Notes under the pieces: generated by a model
What the model was told of the DNA's origin: nothing
Seen by the model: only the letters and a program-made list of their open reading frames with translations
Database searches by the model: none
Shown: positions 663 to 48,951 of the stretch, in pieces
Layout: each line of letters opens with the position of its first letter
Numbering within the stretch: the first letter of the stretch is position 1
Position numbers and translations under genes: made by a program
NCBI GenBank assembly: GCA_964564925.1
Contig: CAZMBY010000004.1
Span: 12,892-61,842 of the forward strand
Length of the DNA stretch: 48,951 nucleotides
Source of the DNA: an uncultured Methanosarcinales archaeon
GTDB lineage: Archaea; Nanobdellota; Nanobdellia; Woesearchaeales; GW2011-AR4
Direction: 5' to 3'

Positions 663-1931
663 ATGAAAAAGACAAATTACAAAATTTACACATTGATGAG
701 CCTGTTGTTGCTTGTTATCGCAGCATGCGCTCAAAAGCAAACAAACATTCCTGCTGGGGAATACAGCTATGATAATCTCATCAACAACATGAAATCTGCT
801 GGAACAAGTGTTGAGAAAACATCAGAGCTTGATGAAAATTTTTTCGGAACGAAAGGTTATGTGGTAAAGCTCAACAATGCTGATATGCAGATATACCAAT
901 TTGCTAATGAAGCAGATGCGAACAAGGCAGCATCAACAATATCAAAGGATGCCTCAACGATTGGCACAACTATGGTGACATGGATTGATGAGCCTCACAT
1001 CTACAAAAAAGGCAGTATAATCCTGACTTATGCTGGAAAAGATGAAAAAATTAAGAGTTTGCTGGAGAAAGAGCTTGGCTCGGAAATAGCAGGCTCTAAA
1101 TCAACAGTGGAAAAAATAACTAATTTTGAGGAATGTGCTGCTGCAGGCTATCCCGTAGGAGAATCTTATCCAAGGCAATGCTTTGCGCCTGACAAAACAT
1201 TTGTAGAAGAAACTGGAAGCATTTCAAAAACAATTAATACCGGAAAGGGAGAATTAAAATTAGTTTATGATCCTGGCTATGGTGGAAGAGCTTTTTTAAG
1301 TGGAAAATTAGGCAGGTCAACTCCATGCGTAAATTGGGAAGTCATGATAACCAGCACAAAAGACATGCCCACTTCACAAGTCAATATTAACATAAACAGC
1401 AAGAGCACAGCAGAAGTCTGCATTCAGGTTGTAGGAGAGCCGCAGGAAATCAATGAGAAAATAATGAGCGTTTCTGAAAATACAAATTATCGAATTTCAG
1501 TCAATAGCAAAGAAGTATTTTCAGGAAAAATAAATTCAGCCAGGAGTGGAACCGGAATAGTTGAACCGGAAACATCAGAGGGTATCAGCAGCCTGATTGA
1601 TATTCCACTTGAAAGCTATCCATCCTCTCCTGTACCTTCAAGATTTGTCATAGAACACAGGTCTGCTTTGGATGGAAGGACAATTGAAATAAGAACTTTT
1701 GTTGCGGGGACTTTGCTTGGTGAACAAGCCTGCCCTCCTGATAGGGGGGCATGCGCACAGCCAAGGATATGGCTGAATGAAATTACAGGGGCTGACAGAG
1801 ATAGGGAGTATGACTTAATGGTTTTATTGGAAGAGGATGACAACAGCACCTATAAGGTTTATGATAAGCCATTAGTCAAAGGGATTGTCCACGGAAGCAA
1901 ATCCAGCGTTTATGTTGAGAAAACAGAGTGA
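663..1931 (+). CDS. Secreted multidomain lipoprotein, function unknown
   Basis: GAGGT RBS, signal peptide with lipobox-like IAAC, several Cys-paired domains, and the motif ITNFEECAAAGYPVGESYPRQC. Confidence 0.75.
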   Translation: MKKTNYKIYTLMSLLLLVIAACAQKQTNIPAGEYSYDNLINNMKSAGTSVEKTSELDENFFGTKGYVVKLNNADMQIYQFANEADANKAASTISKDASTIGTTMVTWIDEPHIYKKGSIILTYAGKDEKIKSLLEKELGSEIAGSKSTVEKITNFEECAAAGYPVGESYPRQCFAPDKTFVEETGSISKTINTGKGELKLVYDPGYGGRAFLSGKLGRSTPCVNWEVMITSTKDMPTSQVNININSKSTAEVCIQVVGEPQEINEKIMSVSENTNYRISVNSKEVFSGKINSARSGTGIVEPETSEGISSLIDIPLESYPSSPVPSRFVIEHRSALDGRTIEIRTFVAGTLLGEQACPPDRGACAQPRIWLNEITGADRDREYDLMVLLEEDDNSTYKVYDKPLVKGIVHGSKSSVYVEKTE

Positions 1932-23946: not shown

Positions 23947-24147
23947 ATGAGACTAACAATAGTTCTAGAGCCACAAGAAGAAGGCGGATTTACAGCTTAC
24001 GTACCCTCTTTGCATGGCTGCATCTCGCAAGGGGATACGAAAGAAGAGGCCATTAAAAATATTAAAGAAGCGATTGAATTATATCTGGAACCAGACACGA
24101 ACGAACTTATTGAGTTTAGAGGAGAAAAAGTTATTGTTATAGTATGA
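23947..24147 (+). CDS. hicB: HicB-family antitoxin (short form without a DNA-binding domain)
   Basis: GGFTAYVPSLHGCISQGDTKEEAIKNIKEAIELYL. Confidence 0.9.
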   Translation: MRLTIVLEPQEEGGFTAYVPSLHGCISQGDTKEEAIKNIKEAIELYLEPDTNELIEFRGEKVIVIV

Positions 24148-24522
24148 AAATTCCTCTTATTTCTGGAATTGAGGCTATTAAGAGGCTAAAGAGAGCAGGA
24201 TTTATTGCTACAAGACAGAAAGGATCCCATGTAAGACTGGAAAAATATACAGGTGAGAAAACAATTAAGATTACAGTTCCTATTCATGCTGAGTTAAAGA
24301 AAGGAACTGTCAAAAACCACCCATCACAGATGGATGGCATGAAGCGAAGCTTTATTTAGGAGCACATTGATGGTGGTTTTTGAGCACGCTCGGAATTCCA
24401 CGATAAGATTTGTGGTTGAGTCTACGAAACCACCTATCATAGATAAGGTGGAATTCCGACGTTTAAACAGAATAATCAAAGATGCAGGATTAACATTGGA
24501 AGAATTTGGTGGGTTGAAATGA
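24144..24522 (+). pseudogene. hicA: HicA-family toxin gene interrupted by a 154-bp insertion
   Basis: 24144-24308 encodes MKIPLISG...RQKGSHVRL...ELKKGT. Removing 24309-24462 joins it in frame to LNRIIKDAGLTLEEFGGLK* (24463-24522), giving a normal 74-aa HicA. Confidence 0.88.
24309..24462 (-). mobile_element. Non-autonomous palindromic element, copy 1 (PATE/IS200-IS605-like)
   Basis: Two 12-bp inverted-repeat modules (TCAAAAACCACC/GGTGGTTTTTGA and TCGGAATTCCAC/GTGGAATTCCGA). No TSD. Lies 3' of TTTAA on the minus strand and is homologous to 25821-25962. Confidence 0.8.
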
Positions 24523-24535
24523 ATTTTCGCACGGC

Positions 24536-25759
24536 TTAAATTAGTAATTCGCCTAGGAAAATATTATGTTTTGTCCTCTTTATCCTTAATTTAACCTTTT
24601 GACCTACTCCTTTATGGCAATTTGGAACAGAAATCAGCCTTTCTTTTGATACAGCAAGCATTTCGTTGCCAATCCTTCCAGGCAATACAATTTCCGCCTC
24701 TACGATTTGGCCTTTTTTGAATGGCTTAGGGAGTTCAGGCAACTCTTCAACATTAAAGGCTGATTTATCAAAGATCAGCTTAACATTATGCTTGTCCTCC
24801 AATTCCTTCATTTTTGTGTAAAATGCTTCCATAGGCACAGTATCTACAGGGTTTCTGCCAAATCTGTAGTTAAGCATGTTTTGTATGCCTATAGGGGGGC
24901 AATTCTTGCCAGCTCCTACCTCTTCAGCAAACTTTGCAAGCTTTGGCATTTCATCGTCATTAAATCCAGGCACCCATACAGGCGCAATAATCAAATCCAT
25001 TTTTGTCGGTATATATCTTGCGATGTCCAGCACTTTGTTCAGATTGTACGGATGGCCCGCCAATTTCTGCGCTTTCTCTGGATCGAGAGCATTCAGAGAA
25101 AGGTTGATTCTTGTCAAGCCAGCCTCTGCAAGCTCATCAACGAGCTGCTTGCTCAACAAAGTCCCATTAGTGTCTATAGAGCTTCTTTTCACTCCTTTAA
25201 TTGACATTATACCCCTAACCAATTCAGTCATATCAGCATACAATGTCGGCTCGCCCTGGGCATTGATATGGGCATCAATATCATTGCTTGCTTTGAATTC
25301 TACTATCTTCCTGAGCTCATTGACTAGGTAATCTTTCTCCACAACAAAATCAGTTTTCCTCCTTGAATGTGGCCCTTCATCTACAGAGCAGAAGATGCAG
25401 CTGATGTTGCAGCTGGTTATTGGCTTGACTTCGATGATATTTGTGCCCCTGTCTATCAAGCCGAAATAGTTGGTCCCAATTAGCGGAATTCCAGAAGACT
25501 GGTGGATGTAAATTGTTGTCTTATTGTTCAGCCTGTTCTTCAAGTTTTTAAATGAGTTAAACAGCAGGAATTCAAATTTTCTCCTAGCGCTTTGCTCTGG
25601 TAAATCCTTAAATATTATTGAATTTTTGCGTATTTCGAAAGGGGCAATCTTCCTAAGTTTTTCCTGCTCCAGGTGGAAATAAAACAGCCTAAGGAAGCTC
25701 ACCTTTACCTTGTCATCATGCTCCTCAAAGCTCAGATCCTTAAACAAAAGCTCAGCCAT
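24536..25759 (-). CDS. Archaeal radical SAM protein with C-terminal TRAM-like domain
   Basis: CxxxCxxC motif (CNISCIFC), QGEPTLY, IDTNGTLL and RINLSLNALD; short beta-rich C-terminus. Confidence 0.9.
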   Translation of the reverse strand: MAELLFKDLSFEEHDDKVKVSFLRLFYFHLEQEKLRKIAPFEIRKNSIIFKDLPEQSARRKFEFLLFNSFKNLKNRLNNKTTIYIHQSSGIPLIGTNYFGLIDRGTNIIEVKPITSCNISCIFCSVDEGPHSRRKTDFVVEKDYLVNELRKIVEFKASNDIDAHINAQGEPTLYADMTELVRGIMSIKGVKRSSIDTNGTLLSKQLVDELAEAGLTRINLSLNALDPEKAQKLAGHPYNLNKVLDIARYIPTKMDLIIAPVWVPGFNDDEMPKLAKFAEEVGAGKNCPPIGIQNMLNYRFGRNPVDTVPMEAFYTKMKELEDKHNVKLIFDKSAFNVEELPELPKPFKKGQIVEAEIVLPGRIGNEMLAVSKERLISVPNCHKGVGQKVKLRIKRTKHNIFLGELLI

Positions 25760-25820
25760 AACCCAGAGTATGGATATGCTTATAAAAATATATCGCAGCT
25801 TATAATGAAAAATTATTTAA

Positions 25821-25962
25821 ACATCGGAATTCCACCATCTCTACGAGTGGTGGTCTCATAAACTCGACCACAAATCTTATTGTGGAATTCCGAGTGTGCT
25901 CAAAAACCACGCAATGTAATAGTATATTAATGCCACCGTGTCTATGACCGGTGGTTTTTGAC
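25821..25962 (+). mobile_element. Non-autonomous palindromic element, copy 2 (142 bp)
   Basis: TTTAA|ACATCGGAATTCCAC...GTGGAATTCCGA GTGTGC TCAAAAACCAC...GTGGTTTTTGAC|AG, the same architecture as 24309-24462 in the opposite orientation. Confidence 0.8.
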
Positions 25963-25998
25963 AGAATAAGCCATATTTTTAATATTACAGGTGGGGGA

Positions 25999-26646
25999 AT
26001 GGCACAAGAAGTTGTAATCACTTATGAAACTCTGTTTGAGCTGCTTCAAAGGGAGAAGGAAAGGGTAGACCTGCAAAGGCTGGAGCCTACTTTTTTCACT
26101 GACACAATCAGCTACATAAAAGAGAAGAAAAAGATTCTGGAAGCCAAGAACGAATCGGTTTTTGCCAGCGAAGAAAAGAAAAAGACAGAAAGGCAGCTTG
26201 AGAACATATACAAGATCCTGAAGGAGCTGTATGAGAGAAGGGAAAAGAAGATAATTAGCGTGGCCCTGGACAAGAGCAGGACAAAGTCAAACCTCATAGA
26301 CACAACAGCCTTGTTAAATGAAGAAAAGGTATTTTTTGATGCTGTAACCCATCTTTTGGATGTTTACAGGGAATCCATCCTATACAGCGTGCTGAATGAA
26401 AAGATGCCTTTTATGCAGGAAATTTCAAAAGTAATGCCAAAGCCTAATGAAGACTTTAAAACCGCTTTGGAGCTGAAGAAGGCTGCAAGGCTGGTCAGGT
26501 TTATCTCTCAAGTCCCTAAATTTGTGGGGCCGGAGCTTGAGGAATACGGCCCGTTTGGAGAAGAGGACATAGCGAATTTGCCTGCAGAAATTGCAGAGAT
26601 ACTCATAAGCAAAGGCAAGGTTGAAGAGATCAAGGAAGAGCGATAA
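25999..26646 (+). CDS. gins51: DNA replication complex GINS subunit (Gins51-type, A-domain plus C-terminal B-domain)
   Basis: ITYETLFELLQREK...LQRLEPTFF, YERREKKII and VRFISQVPKFVGPELEEYGPF...IANLPAEIAEILISKGKVEEI. ATG 25999 follows a GGTG/GGGG RBS. Confidence 0.82.
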   Translation: MAQEVVITYETLFELLQREKERVDLQRLEPTFFTDTISYIKEKKKILEAKNESVFASEEKKKTERQLENIYKILKELYERREKKIISVALDKSRTKSNLIDTTALLNEEKVFFDAVTHLLDVYRESILYSVLNEKMPFMQEISKVMPKPNEDFKTALELKKAARLVRFISQVPKFVGPELEEYGPFGEEDIANLPAEIAEILISKGKVEEIKEER

Positions 26647-36801: not shown

Positions 36802-37824
36802 GTGTTTTTCATGGATGAGCTTCAATCAATGGTGGATGGTGAATTTCGAAGACTTGGCATCGCAAATGGTATTCTTCAAACAGAGCTCTTGCACAGGGTT
36901 TTTGAAGACTTATTTCAGCTTGACCTTAGCCCAATTCTAACGGAAAATTCCGGCAAATTGATTGCCTCAGTAAGAATTAATCCGGAACCAGGCATTGCTA
37001 ACTTTCAAGAGTTCGGCCCTTTTGCCGATCAATATCCCTCGTTGCTGGGAATTTCTGGCCGCTTAAAAGAGCAGATGCTGGAACATTGTGATTCATTTCA
37101 ATTTGAGGCTATTTATGCAGACCCAACCCCATCAACTCGAAAAAGAGTTTTTAAATATCATGAGCCGGAGGCTTTGACGCTGAACCTAAGAAAAACCAAA
37201 CTATTTCTTTCAAGCGGATTGGTTGCAGCCGTTGTTGGCAGCTCGATTCCTGCAGGCATATCAGCAGGACTCGGTAATTTGCCATCGATAGCTTCAAATG
37301 CTTATTATAATATTGGACAGAATGTTGTTGTTTGGGGGATTGGTGCTTTGGCAGCAACAGTTGCTTGGGTTGCTGTTCCATTATTAATCAGAGCTTTTAG
37401 AAGCCAAAGAAAAGAATTCATAAAATATAGGAAAGGCCTTGGCATAGAGTGGATAATTGAGGATGAAGTCAGGTTAGGAAGAGAATATGATAGGTTCAAG
37501 CCTAAGAAAGAAAATGAATCTGGTGATTACACTGGGCAATTTGACAGATATTCCCTAAAACCATTTTGGAAAAAAGGCATTGACCTAAAAACATATCTTG
37601 AAAAGAATCCGGATAGGCTTTTTTATGTTGAAATTGGAGATAATCAGCGCACATCAGTTATTTTGACAGCTGAATTTATAGTGGGCATGTATGGCAGAAA
37701 CTACAAAACTAGAATAGTACAAAGCTATCAAGCAACAGATCCCTTGACTGCTCCAAAAAGTTTCATAGACAGAAGACATTACAAACTAGGTTCTGACAGT
37801 AAGCAGACTTTGGTTAGCCCCTGA
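36802..37824 (+). CDS. Hypothetical membrane protein with two central TM helices
   Basis: 340-aa ORF with a central hydrophobic hairpin; no family recognised. Confidence 0.65.
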   Translation: MFFMDELQSMVDGEFRRLGIANGILQTELLHRVFEDLFQLDLSPILTENSGKLIASVRINPEPGIANFQEFGPFADQYPSLLGISGRLKEQMLEHCDSFQFEAIYADPTPSTRKRVFKYHEPEALTLNLRKTKLFLSSGLVAAVVGSSIPAGISAGLGNLPSIASNAYYNIGQNVVVWGIGALAATVAWVAVPLLIRAFRSQRKEFIKYRKGLGIEWIIEDEVRLGREYDRFKPKKENESGDYTGQFDRYSLKPFWKKGIDLKTYLEKNPDRLFYVEIGDNQRTSVILTAEFIVGMYGRNYKTRIVQSYQATDPLTAPKSFIDRRHYKLGSDSKQTLVSP

Positions 37825-48842: not shown

Positions 48843-48951
48843 GGGCTCGTAGTCTAGCGGCTATGACGTCACCCTTACAAGCCGCAGGTTAAATTTTATT
48901 TAACCATTTTACGAAAGGTGAAGGTCACCAGTTCGAATCTGGTCGGGCCCA
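48843..48951 (+). tRNA. trnV: tRNA-Val(TAC) with a ~36-nt anticodon-loop intron (about 48880-48915)
   Basis: Acceptor GGGCTCG/CGGGCCC-A, D arm GTC/GAC, anticodon stem TCACC/GGTGA with CT-TAC-A, and T arm ACCAG-TTCGAAT-CTGGT. The intron contains the hairpin GGTTAAA/TTTAACC. Confidence 0.9.

What the first reader, a model, noticed from the sequence alone, without database searches (positions are those of the whole stretch)
24309..25962. Family of small, covarying, multi-hairpin elements inserting 3' of TTTAA without TSD (PATE-like or orphan guide-RNA cassette)
Seen: two copies in opposite orientation (154 and 142 bp) share the frame TTTAA|AC(G/A)TCGGAATTCCAC...GTGGAATTCCGA-G(C/T)GTGC-TCAAAAACCAC...GTGGTTTTTGAC|AG. 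Internal stems covary: GTGGTT/AACCAC versus GTGGTC/GACCAC, and triloop hairpins ATC-ATA-GAT, ATC-ACA-GAT, GTC-ATA-GAC and CTC-GTA-GAG. Loops diverge, so selection appears to act on structure rather than sequence. No transposase is encoded in the window. Established: IS200/IS605 elements insert 3' of a short AT-rich motif without TSD and have subterminal hairpins. From my recollection, TTTAA is the reported TAM of a Sulfolobus TnpB. Their right ends encode omega-RNA whose guide is the flanking DNA. Inference: a non-autonomous IS200/IS605 derivative, possibly still producing a structured RNA that would guide a trans-encoded TnpB to the empty allele. TTTAA targeting would also bias insertion toward archaeal TATA boxes, and copy 2 sits in the divergent promoter region between the radical SAM and GINS genes.
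Basis: partly seen in the sequence, partly recalled or inferred. Interest (0 to 1): 0.75.

Follow-up and report, generated by a model that had tools for sequence, protein, structure and literature searches.

The report
Tiny hairpin-pair mobile DNA in DPANN archaea
The two look-alike 142- and 154-base segments are copies of a small, gene-less jumping DNA element that is widespread in tiny DPANN archaea, slots in right after the motif TTNAAA without duplicating the target, and has knocked out a toxin gene here; which enzyme moves it is still unknown.

Summary
The window holds two copies: 24308-24461 (minus strand, 154 nt) and 25822-25963 (plus strand, 142 nt). They belong to a family with at least 56 independent insertion sites in DPANN archaeal MAGs and groundwater or sediment metagenomes.

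- **Mobility.** It is proven by natural empty sites. Copy 1 splits a hicA toxin gene, and removing exactly 154 nt restores a 74-aa HicA that is 99% identical to intact homologues.
- **Target.** The element reads 5'-CATCGG...TTTTTGACA-3'. It inserts 3' of TTNAAA (49 of 56 sites against 0.4% background) with no target-site duplication.
- **Architecture.** It is two hairpin domains joined by an invariant linker, CGAG-TGTG-CTC. Inner hairpins covary strongly, whereas the closing stems, termini and linker are conserved in sequence.
- **Size range.** Relatives run from 54 to 252 nt, and several are nested precisely inside one another.

By elimination, no TSD, no terminal inverted repeats and no shared core point to a single-strand HUH-type (IS200/IS605-like, PATE-like) non-autonomous transposon.

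No TnpA, TnpB or cargo-bearing copy with these ends was found, so membership of that family is unproven.

The guide-RNA (omega-RNA) idea has no support, for four reasons:
- there is no Rfam match;
- some members are only 54-77 nt;
- a T5 run precedes the 3' end;
- both strands fold equally well.

The parts
24308..24461 (-). Copy 1 of the element (154 nt), reading 5'-CGTCGGAATTCCAC...GTGGTTTTTGACA-3' on the minus strand. It is inserted antisense inside hicA.
   Evidence: Removing exactly these 154 nt restores hicA.
24462..24467 (-). Target hexamer TTTAAA immediately 5' of copy 1. It is part of the original hicA sequence.
   Evidence: Intact hicA alleles read GGAACTTTAAA(C/T)AGAAT. Flank logo.
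24144..24522 (+). hicA toxin gene split by copy 1. The halves are 24144-24307 and 24462-24522, and the insertion creates a premature stop.
   Evidence: The reconstructed 74-aa protein covers Pfam HicA_toxin positions 3-58 of 58.
23947..24147 (+). hicB antitoxin gene, intact, overlapping the hicA start.
25822..25963 (+). Copy 2 of the element (142 nt), reading 5'-CATCGGAATTCCAC...GTGGTTTTTGACA-3'. It is intergenic.
25816..25821 (+). Target hexamer TTTAAA immediately 5' of copy 2.
25824..25893 (+). Domain 1 of copy 2. Its closing stem is TCGGAATTCCAC (25824-25835) paired with GTGGAATTCCGA (25882-25893). It encloses hairpin 1a (25832-25853, CCACCATCTC-TAC-GAGTGGTGG) and hairpin 1b (GTGGTC...GACCAC).
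25894..25899 (+). Linker GTGTGC. Its TGT pairs with the flanking A plus the 5'-terminal CA. The linker is near-invariant across the family.
25900..25961 (+). Domain 2 of copy 2. Its closing stem is TCAAAAACCAC (25900-25910) paired with GTGGTTTTTGA (25951-25961). It encloses a variable hairpin and hairpin 2b (25933-25954, CCACCGTGTC-TAT-GACCGGTGG). A T5 run lies at 25955-25959.
25962..25963 (+). Unpaired 3'-terminal CA. The last six bases, TTGACA, resemble the target TTNAAA.
   Evidence: 55-56 of 56 copies.
24536..25759 (-). Radical SAM gene bracketed by the two inverted copies. It is a neighbour, not part of the element.
   Evidence: The syntenic relative L070 has the gene without copy 2.
25999..26646 (+). 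GINS51 gene, starting 36 nt downstream of copy 2. It is a neighbour.

Best explanation
These are two copies of a non-autonomous DNA transposon family of DPANN (Woesearchaeota-type) archaea. It is most likely moved in trans by a single-strand-specific HUH (Y1, IS200/IS605-like 'peel-and-paste') transposase, which would make it a PATE-like element.

**Shown**
- The element is a gene-less 54-252-nt unit, 5'-CATCG[hairpin domain 1]CGA-GTGTGC-TC[hairpin domain 2]GA-CA-3'.
- It inserts precisely 3' of TTNAAA and duplicates nothing.
- It is polymorphic between close relatives.
- It occurs as 97-99% identical copies at different sites.
- It nests inside other copies.

**Inferred**
- The invariant parts are the cis sites read by the enzyme on folded single-stranded DNA. 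These are the termini, the feet and closing stems of the two hairpins, and the linker, whose TGT pairs with the flanking A and the 5'-terminal CA.
- The enzyme cuts after TTNAAA on the left and after the look-alike TTGACA on the right.
- It releases a single-stranded circle and pastes it after another TTNAAA.
- The inner hairpins only need to stay hairpins, hence the covariation.

In the window, copy 1 has inactivated the hicA toxin gene. Copy 2 sits harmlessly upstream of both divergent promoters.
For: **Mobility and exact limits**
- The reconstructed HicA has more than 100 homologues of exactly 74 aa, the best at 99% identity.
- Intact hicA DNA differs from the window only by the 154-nt block.
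- A 77-nt copy in a dinB gene (L019) leaves a gapless match to Dpo4 residues 3-121 once 75 nt are removed.
- Four nested insertions reproduce the uninterrupted host sequence exactly.
- The syntenic relative L070 lacks copy 2 and carries its own copy at a site that is empty in the window.
- Copies at different sites are 97-99% identical.

**Target**
- 49 of 56 sites are exact TTNAAA, against 0.41% background. The 3' flank is random.

**No TSD, no TIR, no shared core**
- This excludes DDE, serine, tyrosine and IS110-type mechanisms.

**Two-hairpin architecture in direct orientation**
- Hairpins 1a and 2b resemble each other (CCACC-N3-TCTATGA-N3-GGTGG-TTT). The right-end hexamer TTGACA resembles the target.

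**Structure**
- The 5'-terminal dinucleotide is always complementary to the linker: CA:TG in 51 copies, CG:CG in 2, plus TG:CA and CC:GG in variants.
- The element folds strongly as ssDNA.

**Context**
- IS200/IS605 is the most widespread archaeal IS family, and Nanobdellota carry all 27 annotated IS families (PMC13343696).
- TTTAA is the left-end motif of Sulfolobus tnpA+tnpB elements (PMC10640517).
- Gene-less PATE-like relatives of IS200/IS605 are documented (PMC10055086).
Against: - No autonomous partner was found. None of 24 genome hits or about 44 genuine metagenome hits carries cargo between the ends.
- There is no TnpA (tblastn) and no TnpB motif in about 0.5 Mb of surrounding DNA.
- There is no similarity to a Sulfolobus tnpA-tnpB element.
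- The left hairpin begins 2 nt from the end, and the cleavage point lies at the base of a helix. In IS608 a 19-nt spacer carries a guide tetranucleotide.
- The two hairpin closing stems differ in sequence.
- The two window copies, 1.4 kb apart, are in opposite orientation, and only 58 of 89 flanking genes are co-oriented. A strong lagging-strand bias is therefore not evident.
- The nested 54-56-nt relatives sit after GTC, GAG, GTT and GCA, not after TTNAAA.
Confidence: 0.55

Rival explanations
1. The element is a non-autonomous member of a different or still-undescribed transposition system. Candidates are a rolling-circle Y2 HUH (IS91-like) enzyme, a domesticated single-copy RAYT-like enzyme that spreads hairpin units as REP/REPIN elements do in bacteria, or an unknown DPANN enzyme that recognises the CATCG / CGAGTGTGCTCG / CGACA hairpin-pair signature.
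For: - No IS200/IS605 gene with these ends was found.
- The hairpins are terminal rather than subterminal, and the invariant linker and 5'-end-to-linker pairing have no described counterpart.
- The units are extremely small (54-56 nt) and nest in one another at non-TTNAAA sites.
- No paper in the held library mentions the motif in this context.
Against: - Both ends are precise in all 56 copies. One-ended or run-on products, which are typical of rolling-circle elements, were not seen.
- No recurrent candidate gene neighbours the copies.
- RAYT/REP systems are known only from bacteria (own knowledge).
Confidence: 0.27
2. The element is an orphan guide-RNA cassette: its right half is transcribed into an omega-RNA-like scaffold that reads into the flank and guides a trans-encoded TnpB to cut the empty allele (TAM = TTNAAA).
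For: - The TTTAA TAM of an archaeal TnpB is real (PMC10640517).
- PATEs that encode omega-RNAs used in trans have been proposed for bacteria (PMC10055086).
- The right-hand gene is co-oriented with the element in 30 of 41 cases.
Against: - No Rfam family matches even at E <= 10.
- Complete family members of 54-77 nt are too small for known omega-RNA scaffolds.
- A T5 tract, an archaeal termination signal by own knowledge, lies 4 nt before the 3' end, so a transcript would tend to stop before any guide.
- Top and bottom strands fold equally well (-53.3 against -54.2 kcal/mol; 141 against 171 G-U pairs), so there is no sign of selection on one transcribed strand.
- No TnpB was found.
Confidence: 0.08
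3. The copies are mainly exapted host elements, such as transcription terminators or insulators (hairpin plus T5) or protein-binding palindromes. They would be kept for that role rather than as selfish DNA.
For: - About 43-54 of 56 sites are intergenic.
- Many copies lie 0-80 nt after a co-oriented stop codon.
- The top strand carries a hairpin followed by T5.
Against: - Copies interrupt genes (hicA, dinB).
- Presence differs between close relatives.
- Both orientations occur.
- TTNAAA naturally overlaps TAA stop codons and TATA-like boxes, which alone explains the placement.
Confidence: 0.08
4. The repeats are a stationary structured non-coding RNA gene family, or a chance repeat, and not mobile DNA.
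For: Strong predicted structure and covariation.
Against: Precise filled and empty alleles are seen in two protein-coding genes and in four nested cases. There are 56 unrelated flanks.
Confidence: 0.02

Closest known systems
PATEs (palindrome-associated transposable elements) and other gene-less derivatives of IS200/IS605, described in Haloquadratum (PMC3119063) and Geobacillus stearothermophilus (PMC10055086)
   Same: - Gene-less and about 100-250 nt long.
- Asymmetric ends, each with a hairpin.
- Inserted 3' of a short AT-rich motif without a TSD.
- Presumed to be mobilised in trans.
- Multiple copies per genome.
   Different: - No autonomous element shares these ends.
- The hairpins reach the termini (2 nt from each end).
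- An invariant CGAG-TGTG-CTC linker pairs with the 5' end.
- Members can be as small as 54 nt and nest in each other.
- The host range is DPANN archaea.
IS608 / ISDra2 (IS200/IS605 family, Y1 HUH TnpA, single-strand 'peel and paste'); features given from own knowledge of the published work
   Same: - The target motif lies 5' of the left end (TTAC, TTGAT; here TTNAAA).
- No TSD.
- The right-end terminal motif resembles the target.
- Function depends on folded single strands.
   Different: - IS608 has subterminal hairpins of near-identical sequence, with a guide tetranucleotide at the 5' foot and 19-nt and 10-nt spacers to the cleavage sites.
- Here the closing stems differ (GGAATTCC against CAAAAACC) and there is no spacer on the left.
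- No tnpA or tnpB is present.
Sulfolobus islandicus / S. solfataricus IS200/IS605 elements with SisTnpB1 (PMC10640517)
   Same: An archaeal host and a TTTAA motif at the left end, which is also the TnpB TAM.
   Different: There is no detectable sequence similarity between the DPANN element profile and a S. solfataricus tnpA-tnpB locus. The Sulfolobus elements encode both proteins and an omega-RNA.
REP / REPIN elements mobilised by RAYT (bacterial domesticated Y1 transposases); own knowledge
   Same: Very small hairpin units, spread in intergenic DNA, with no coding capacity. The enzyme is encoded elsewhere.
   Different: - REPINs are inverted doublets with a 5' GTAG-type motif and are bacterial.
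- Here the two hairpins are in direct orientation, the target is defined, and the junctions are precise.
Classical MITEs derived from DDE transposons
   Same: Small, non-autonomous, structured and multicopy.
   Different: MITEs have terminal inverted repeats and target-site duplications. Both are absent here.

Membership tests
IS200/IS605 (PATE-type non-autonomous member) | Insertion immediately 3' of a short specific motif, with no target-site duplication | tested here: met
   TTNAAA^ is found at 49 of 56 sites. Empty and filled alleles of hicA and dinB show no duplication.
IS200/IS605 (PATE-type non-autonomous member) | Asymmetric ends without terminal inverted repeats, with a hairpin near each end in the same strand polarity | tested here: met
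   The ends are 5' CATCGG... and ...TTGACA 3'. Hairpins 1a and 2b share CCACC-N3-TCTATGA-N3-GGTGG.
IS200/IS605 (PATE-type non-autonomous member) | Subterminal hairpins with a guide tetranucleotide at the 5' foot that pairs with the cleavage sites (IS608 model) | tested here: inconclusive
   The left closing stem starts 2 nt from the end, and the linker TGT pairs with A^CA across the cleavage point. No convincing guide/cleavage-site pairing could be derived.
IS200/IS605 (PATE-type non-autonomous member) | An autonomous relative with the same ends encoding a Y1 TnpA (PF01797) and/or TnpB | tested here: not met
   - None was seen among 24 genome and about 44 genuine metagenome hits.
- There is no TnpA or TnpB in about 0.5 Mb of flanks.
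- A TnpA profile search returned no DPANN protein among the best 120.
- The search space was limited, since whole MAGs could not be scanned.
IS200/IS605 (PATE-type non-autonomous member) | Orientation bias (top strand on the lagging-strand template) | tested here: inconclusive
   The window copies are in opposite orientation. 58 of 89 neighbouring genes are co-oriented. Replication direction is unknown.
TnpB omega-RNA (right-end guide RNA) | Structured scaffold matching a described omega-RNA family | tested here: not met
   No Rfam match at gathering score or at E <= 10. Members of 54-77 nt exist.
TnpB omega-RNA (right-end guide RNA) | Transcript that runs through the right end into about 16-20 nt of flank | not testable with these tools
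   This needs RNA data. A T5 run 4 nt before the end argues against efficient read-through.
DDE-type MITE | Terminal inverted repeats plus a target-site duplication | tested here: not met
Serine (IS607), tyrosine or IS110-type site-specific insertion | An identical core (2 bp or more) at both junctions and in the empty site | tested here: not met
   The empty site TTTAAAGTTCC shares at most one A with the junctions.
REP/REPIN-RAYT | Inverted doublets of REP units, with a RAYT gene flanked by them | tested here: not met
   The hairpins are in direct orientation. No Y1 gene lies near any copy.

The most novel reading that the evidence does not exclude
The copies belong to a DPANN-specific superfamily of ultra-small (54-250 nt) hairpin-pair single-strand transposons. 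It is defined by CATCG-stem-CGAGTGTGCTCG-stem-CGACA, and its members insert precisely into genes, intergenic TTNAAA sites and each other's loops and linkers. The enzyme that moves them would not be a canonical IS200/IS605 TnpA. It could be a domesticated or novel HUH-like protein, or something undescribed, and it would recognise a helix that spans the cleavage site.
Probability: 0.27. Interest if true: 0.75.

Novelty: new variant of a known kind. Interest (0 to 1): 0.55.

Why it matters
DPANN archaea have tiny genomes and are usually thought poor in mobile DNA. Here, a family with dozens of precise insertions across Woesearchaeota-type and Aenigmatarchaeota MAGs shows active, very compact selfish DNA that can inactivate genes such as a HicA toxin and a Y-family polymerase.

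The exact empty and filled alleles, the strict TTNAAA target and the invariant cis motifs give a ready substrate definition for finding and testing the responsible enzyme.

If the enzyme is an IS200/IS605 TnpA, the family extends that mechanism to hairpins that reach the termini. If it is not, the family points to a new transposition system.

The target overlaps TAA stop codons and TATA-like boxes, so the elements may also shape gene boundaries and promoters in these organisms.

Tried and rejected
**Searches that found nothing**
- Rfam at gathering score and at E <= 10 gave nothing at the element.
- A regex for the TnpB zinc-finger/RuvC-III signature and for the Y1 HUH...Y motif gave no hits in the loci.
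- tblastn with four TnpA proteins found only noise. The best hit, in L060, is a leucyl aminopeptidase.
- Clustering all ORFs around the copies to find a recurrent enzyme yielded only toxin-antitoxin genes, Lrp and housekeeping genes.
- A viral-contig scan for the LE-linker pattern returned only random GC-rich coding hits.
- A TnpA profile search of the protein database returned Sulfolobales, Helicobacter, Deinococcus, Alicyclobacillus and unnamed metagenome proteins. One of the unnamed proteins (P0184) proved to lie in a bacterial context.
- Comparison with a S. solfataricus tnpA-tnpB locus showed no similarity.
- A search for an RE-LE circle or tandem junction in held DNA found none.

**Comparisons that were uninformative**
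- Intergenic alignment with the syntenic relative L070 was too diverged for base-level empty sites. It did show presence/absence polymorphism.
- A strand-asymmetry test (top against bottom strand folding) showed no preference.

**Readings rejected on the empty-site evidence**
- DDE-type MITE.
- Serine, tyrosine or IS110 site-specific insertion.
- BHB intron.
- Integron attC-like cassette.
- Retro-element.

**Other**
- The radical SAM gene bracketed by the two inverted copies was considered as a RAYT-like arrangement. It was rejected because it is an ordinary radical SAM protein and the relative L070 lacks copy 2.
Full report
**What is in the window.**
- Copy 1 lies at 24308-24461 on the minus strand (154 nt). 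Copy 2 lies at 25822-25963 on the plus strand (142 nt).
- They share the ends and the central junction exactly and differ mainly inside the hairpins.
- A profile built from 41 relatives finds only these two places in the 49-kb window (E = 2e-34 and 2e-33).
- Both fold much better than shuffled controls. As RNA the z-scores are -5.0 and -5.8. As single-stranded DNA they are -5.9 and -5.5.
- The surrounding genes are ordinary chromosomal genes of a Woesearchaeota-type DPANN archaeon: an S-layer protein, hicB/hicA, a radical SAM protein, GINS51, an Lrp-type regulator, enolase and FtsY.
- The HicA protein is 96-99% identical to proteins labelled Candidatus Woesearchaeota.

**The family.**
- One exact-pattern scan of species-representative genomes gave 24 loci in Woesearchaeota and Aenigmatarchaeota MAGs and in MAGs labelled 'uncultured Methanosarcinales'.
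- One scan of metagenome contigs gave 50 loci, about 44 of them genuine.
- After removing duplicates there are 56 distinct insertion sites.
- Lengths run from 77 to 252 nt, with a mode near 140-148 nt.
- Several contigs end inside a copy, as expected for a repeat that breaks assemblies.
- Copies at different sites in one sample or MAG can be 97-99% identical (L031/L040 and L004/L007). Others are 80-90% identical. Spread has therefore been both recent and old.

**Proof of mobility and exact limits.**
- Copy 1 interrupts hicA. Joining the two halves after removing 154 nt gives a 74-aa protein.
  - That protein has more than 100 database homologues of exactly 74 aa, the best at 99% identity.
  - It covers the Pfam HicA model end to end.
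- Intact alleles fetched from four contigs read GGAACTTTAAA(C/T)AGAAT. The window reads GGAACT-[154 nt]-TTAAACAGAAT.
- On the element's strand this is TTTAAA^[CGTCGG...TTTTTGACA]^GTTCC. Nothing is duplicated.
- One A is ambiguous, because the element ends in A and is preceded by A.
- A second case is the 77-nt copy in L019, which sits antisense in a Y-family polymerase gene. Removing 75 nt gives a fragment that aligns without a gap to Dpo4 residues 3-121 across the junction.
- Four nested insertions resolve the ambiguity. In each, deleting CATCG...GACA (or the variant TGTCG...GACA) restores the sequence seen in uninterrupted host copies.
- A syntenic relative of the window (L070, 76-81% protein identity) lacks copy 2. 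It carries a copy at a site that is empty in the window.

**Target.**
- Over the 56 sites the six bases before the element are T (54), T (53), N, A (54), A (56), A (56). The 3' flank shows no conservation.
- Exact TTNAAA occurs at 49 of 56 sites, against 0.41% of positions in the same loci. The other seven differ by one base.
- The last six bases of the element, TTGACA, fit TTNA(A/C)A. The two presumed cleavage sites therefore resemble each other.
- Between 43 and 54 of the 56 sites are intergenic, depending on how marginal spanning ORFs are judged. Many lie 0-80 nt after a stop codon or just upstream of a start.
- TTNAAA overlaps TAA stop codons and TATA-like boxes, which explains this placement.
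- Copy 2 lies upstream of both divergent promoters' TATA-like boxes and separates neither from its gene. This is a reading of the sequence, not a test.

**Anatomy.** All members read CA-[TCG...CGA]-GTGTGC-[TC...GA]-CA.
- In the main family, domain 1 is closed by TCGGAATTCCAC/GTGGAATTCCGA. Domain 2 is closed by TCAAAAACCAC/GTGGTTTTTGA.
- On a MAFFT alignment of 41 copies that was not fitted to any structure, a 35-pair model gives the following:
  - 96.4% of cells are paired, against 31-51% when partners are slid.
  - 66 double-change cells are seen, against 15 +/- 4 in shuffles (0 of 500 reach it).
- The closing stems hardly vary, so they say little about structure and point to sequence-specific recognition. 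They do carry rare compensatory changes (A:U to G:C at two positions).
- The inner hairpins 1a and 2b carry compensatory changes at 8 of 10 pairs.
- Hairpins 1a and 2b resemble each other (CCACC-N3-TCTATGA-N3-GGTGG-TTT) and lie in the same polarity near the two ends.
- The 5'-terminal dinucleotide is always complementary to the linker: CA:TG in 51 copies, CG:CG in 2 (including window copy 1), TG:CA in a second family and in one mini type, and CC:GG in L026.
- The left helix therefore runs to the very end of the element, and with the flanking A across the insertion point.
- Alternative pairings of the repeated CCAC/GTGG blocks exist.

**Small and nested relatives.** Longer copies contain precise insertions of 54-56-nt units with the same plan, for example CATCG-AAAATC-AAA-GATTTT-CGAGTGTGCTCG-AAAATGC-GAA-GCATTTAT-CGACA.
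- Positions seen are the loop of hairpin 2b (L058, L064, L036), the linker (L046), the domain-2 stem in reverse orientation (L067), and before ATGCCACC (L029, L008).
- Solo relatives with other stems occur at L004:908-1002 and at L044 (minus strand).
- A second full-size family (TGTCGGAAATTT...CCGAGCATGCTCAAAAACC...GGTTTTTGACA) occurs in L055, L056 and L078, again after ...AAA.
- The nested units follow GTC, GAG, GTT or GCA, so target choice differs among subfamilies.

**Which mechanism.**
- The empty sites exclude DDE transposases, which would leave a TSD and need TIRs.
- They also exclude serine, tyrosine and IS110-type recombinases, which would leave a shared core at both junctions.
- Retro-elements are excluded as well.
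- What remains among known systems is HUH-type single-strand transposition. IS200/IS605 is the obvious candidate for four reasons:
  - it inserts 3' of a short motif without a TSD;
  - it uses folded ends;
  - it is the most widespread IS family in archaea, and Nanobdellota carry all 27 annotated IS families (PMC13343696);
  - it has a TTTAA left-end motif in Sulfolobus (PMC10640517).
- Gene-less PATE-like derivatives are documented (PMC10055086).

**What is missing.**
- No copy carries cargo.
- No TnpA or TnpB was found around any copy.
- No recurrent candidate gene neighbours the copies.
- The viral scan was empty.
- The TnpA profile search returned no DPANN protein.
- A Sulfolobus tnpA-tnpB locus shows no similarity.
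- The geometry differs from IS608: the hairpins are terminal, there is no left spacer, and the closing stems are dissimilar.
- I therefore file it as 'works like an IS200/IS605 PATE', with membership unproven.

**The guide-RNA idea.** The concept exists for bacterial PATEs (PMC10055086). Nothing here supports it.
- There is no omega-RNA-like Rfam match.
- Complete members are only 54-77 nt.
- A T5 run lies 4 nt before the 3' end.
- The two strands fold equally well: means are -53.3 against -54.2 kcal/mol, and G-U pairs number 141 against 171.
- The covariation is thus as well explained by DNA hairpins as by RNA.
- It cannot be excluded without RNA data.

**Verdict.** This is a real and well-defined family of very small non-autonomous mobile elements of DPANN archaea. 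Its mobility, target and cis-architecture are established here, and its transposase is not. It appears undescribed in the searchable literature.

Noticed in passing
window 24144-24522: The hicA toxin gene of a hicBA pair is inactivated by copy 1, while hicB stays intact. Intact alleles at 96-99% identity exist in related populations.
   Followed up: yes
L019 75-151: A minimal 77-nt copy lies antisense in a dinB/Dpo4-like gene. The 75 inserted bases are in frame and contain no stop codon, so the gene stays open with 25 extra codons next to the catalytic SxDEAY motif.
   Followed up: partly
L004 3026-4043: A MazF/PemK-like and AbrB/MazE-like gene pair is bracketed by two copies in the same orientation, an arrangement that could move as a composite. 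AbrB-type antitoxin genes also lie within about 160 nt of copies in L050/L054 and L028.
   Followed up: partly
L058, L064, L036, L046, L067, L029, L008, L025: Precise nested insertions of 54-56-nt hairpin-pair units lie inside larger copies. One is in reverse orientation. Their sites are not TTNAAA.
   Followed up: partly
L055:717-838, L056:240-332, L078 (minus strand):8808-8901, L026 (minus strand):1321-1416: A second full-size family and a variant share the right end and the ...AAA^ target. Their left stems differ, and the 5' dinucleotide and linker have swapped in a compensating way.
   Followed up: partly
L014 1-260 and L018 5273-5410: Two contigs of one Aenigmatarchaeota MAG share the left flank and domain 1 of a copy, then diverge after CTCAAAAAC. 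L014 continues into sequence resembling the left-flank gene. This may be an assembly fork or a recombination between paralogues.
   Followed up: no
L010, L021, L039 (and other 'binchicken' MAG loci): MAGs titled 'uncultured Methanosarcinales' share several syntenic genes with a Woesearchaeota MAG, so those organism labels look unreliable.
   Followed up: no
window 48843-48951: An Rfam tRNA hit spans 109 nt for a 71-position model and runs to the window end. ARAGORN found no tRNA there. It may be an intron-containing archaeal tRNA.
   Followed up: no
window 663-1931 and 36802-37824: Two large ORFs (422 and 340 aa) have no Pfam match at E <= 0.001.
   Followed up: no
L004 978-2893: Two adjacent paralogous genes of unknown function (312 and 326 aa, shared C-terminal ...DGPALAVVASRAK) lie between a solo mini-element and a full copy.
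   Followed up: no
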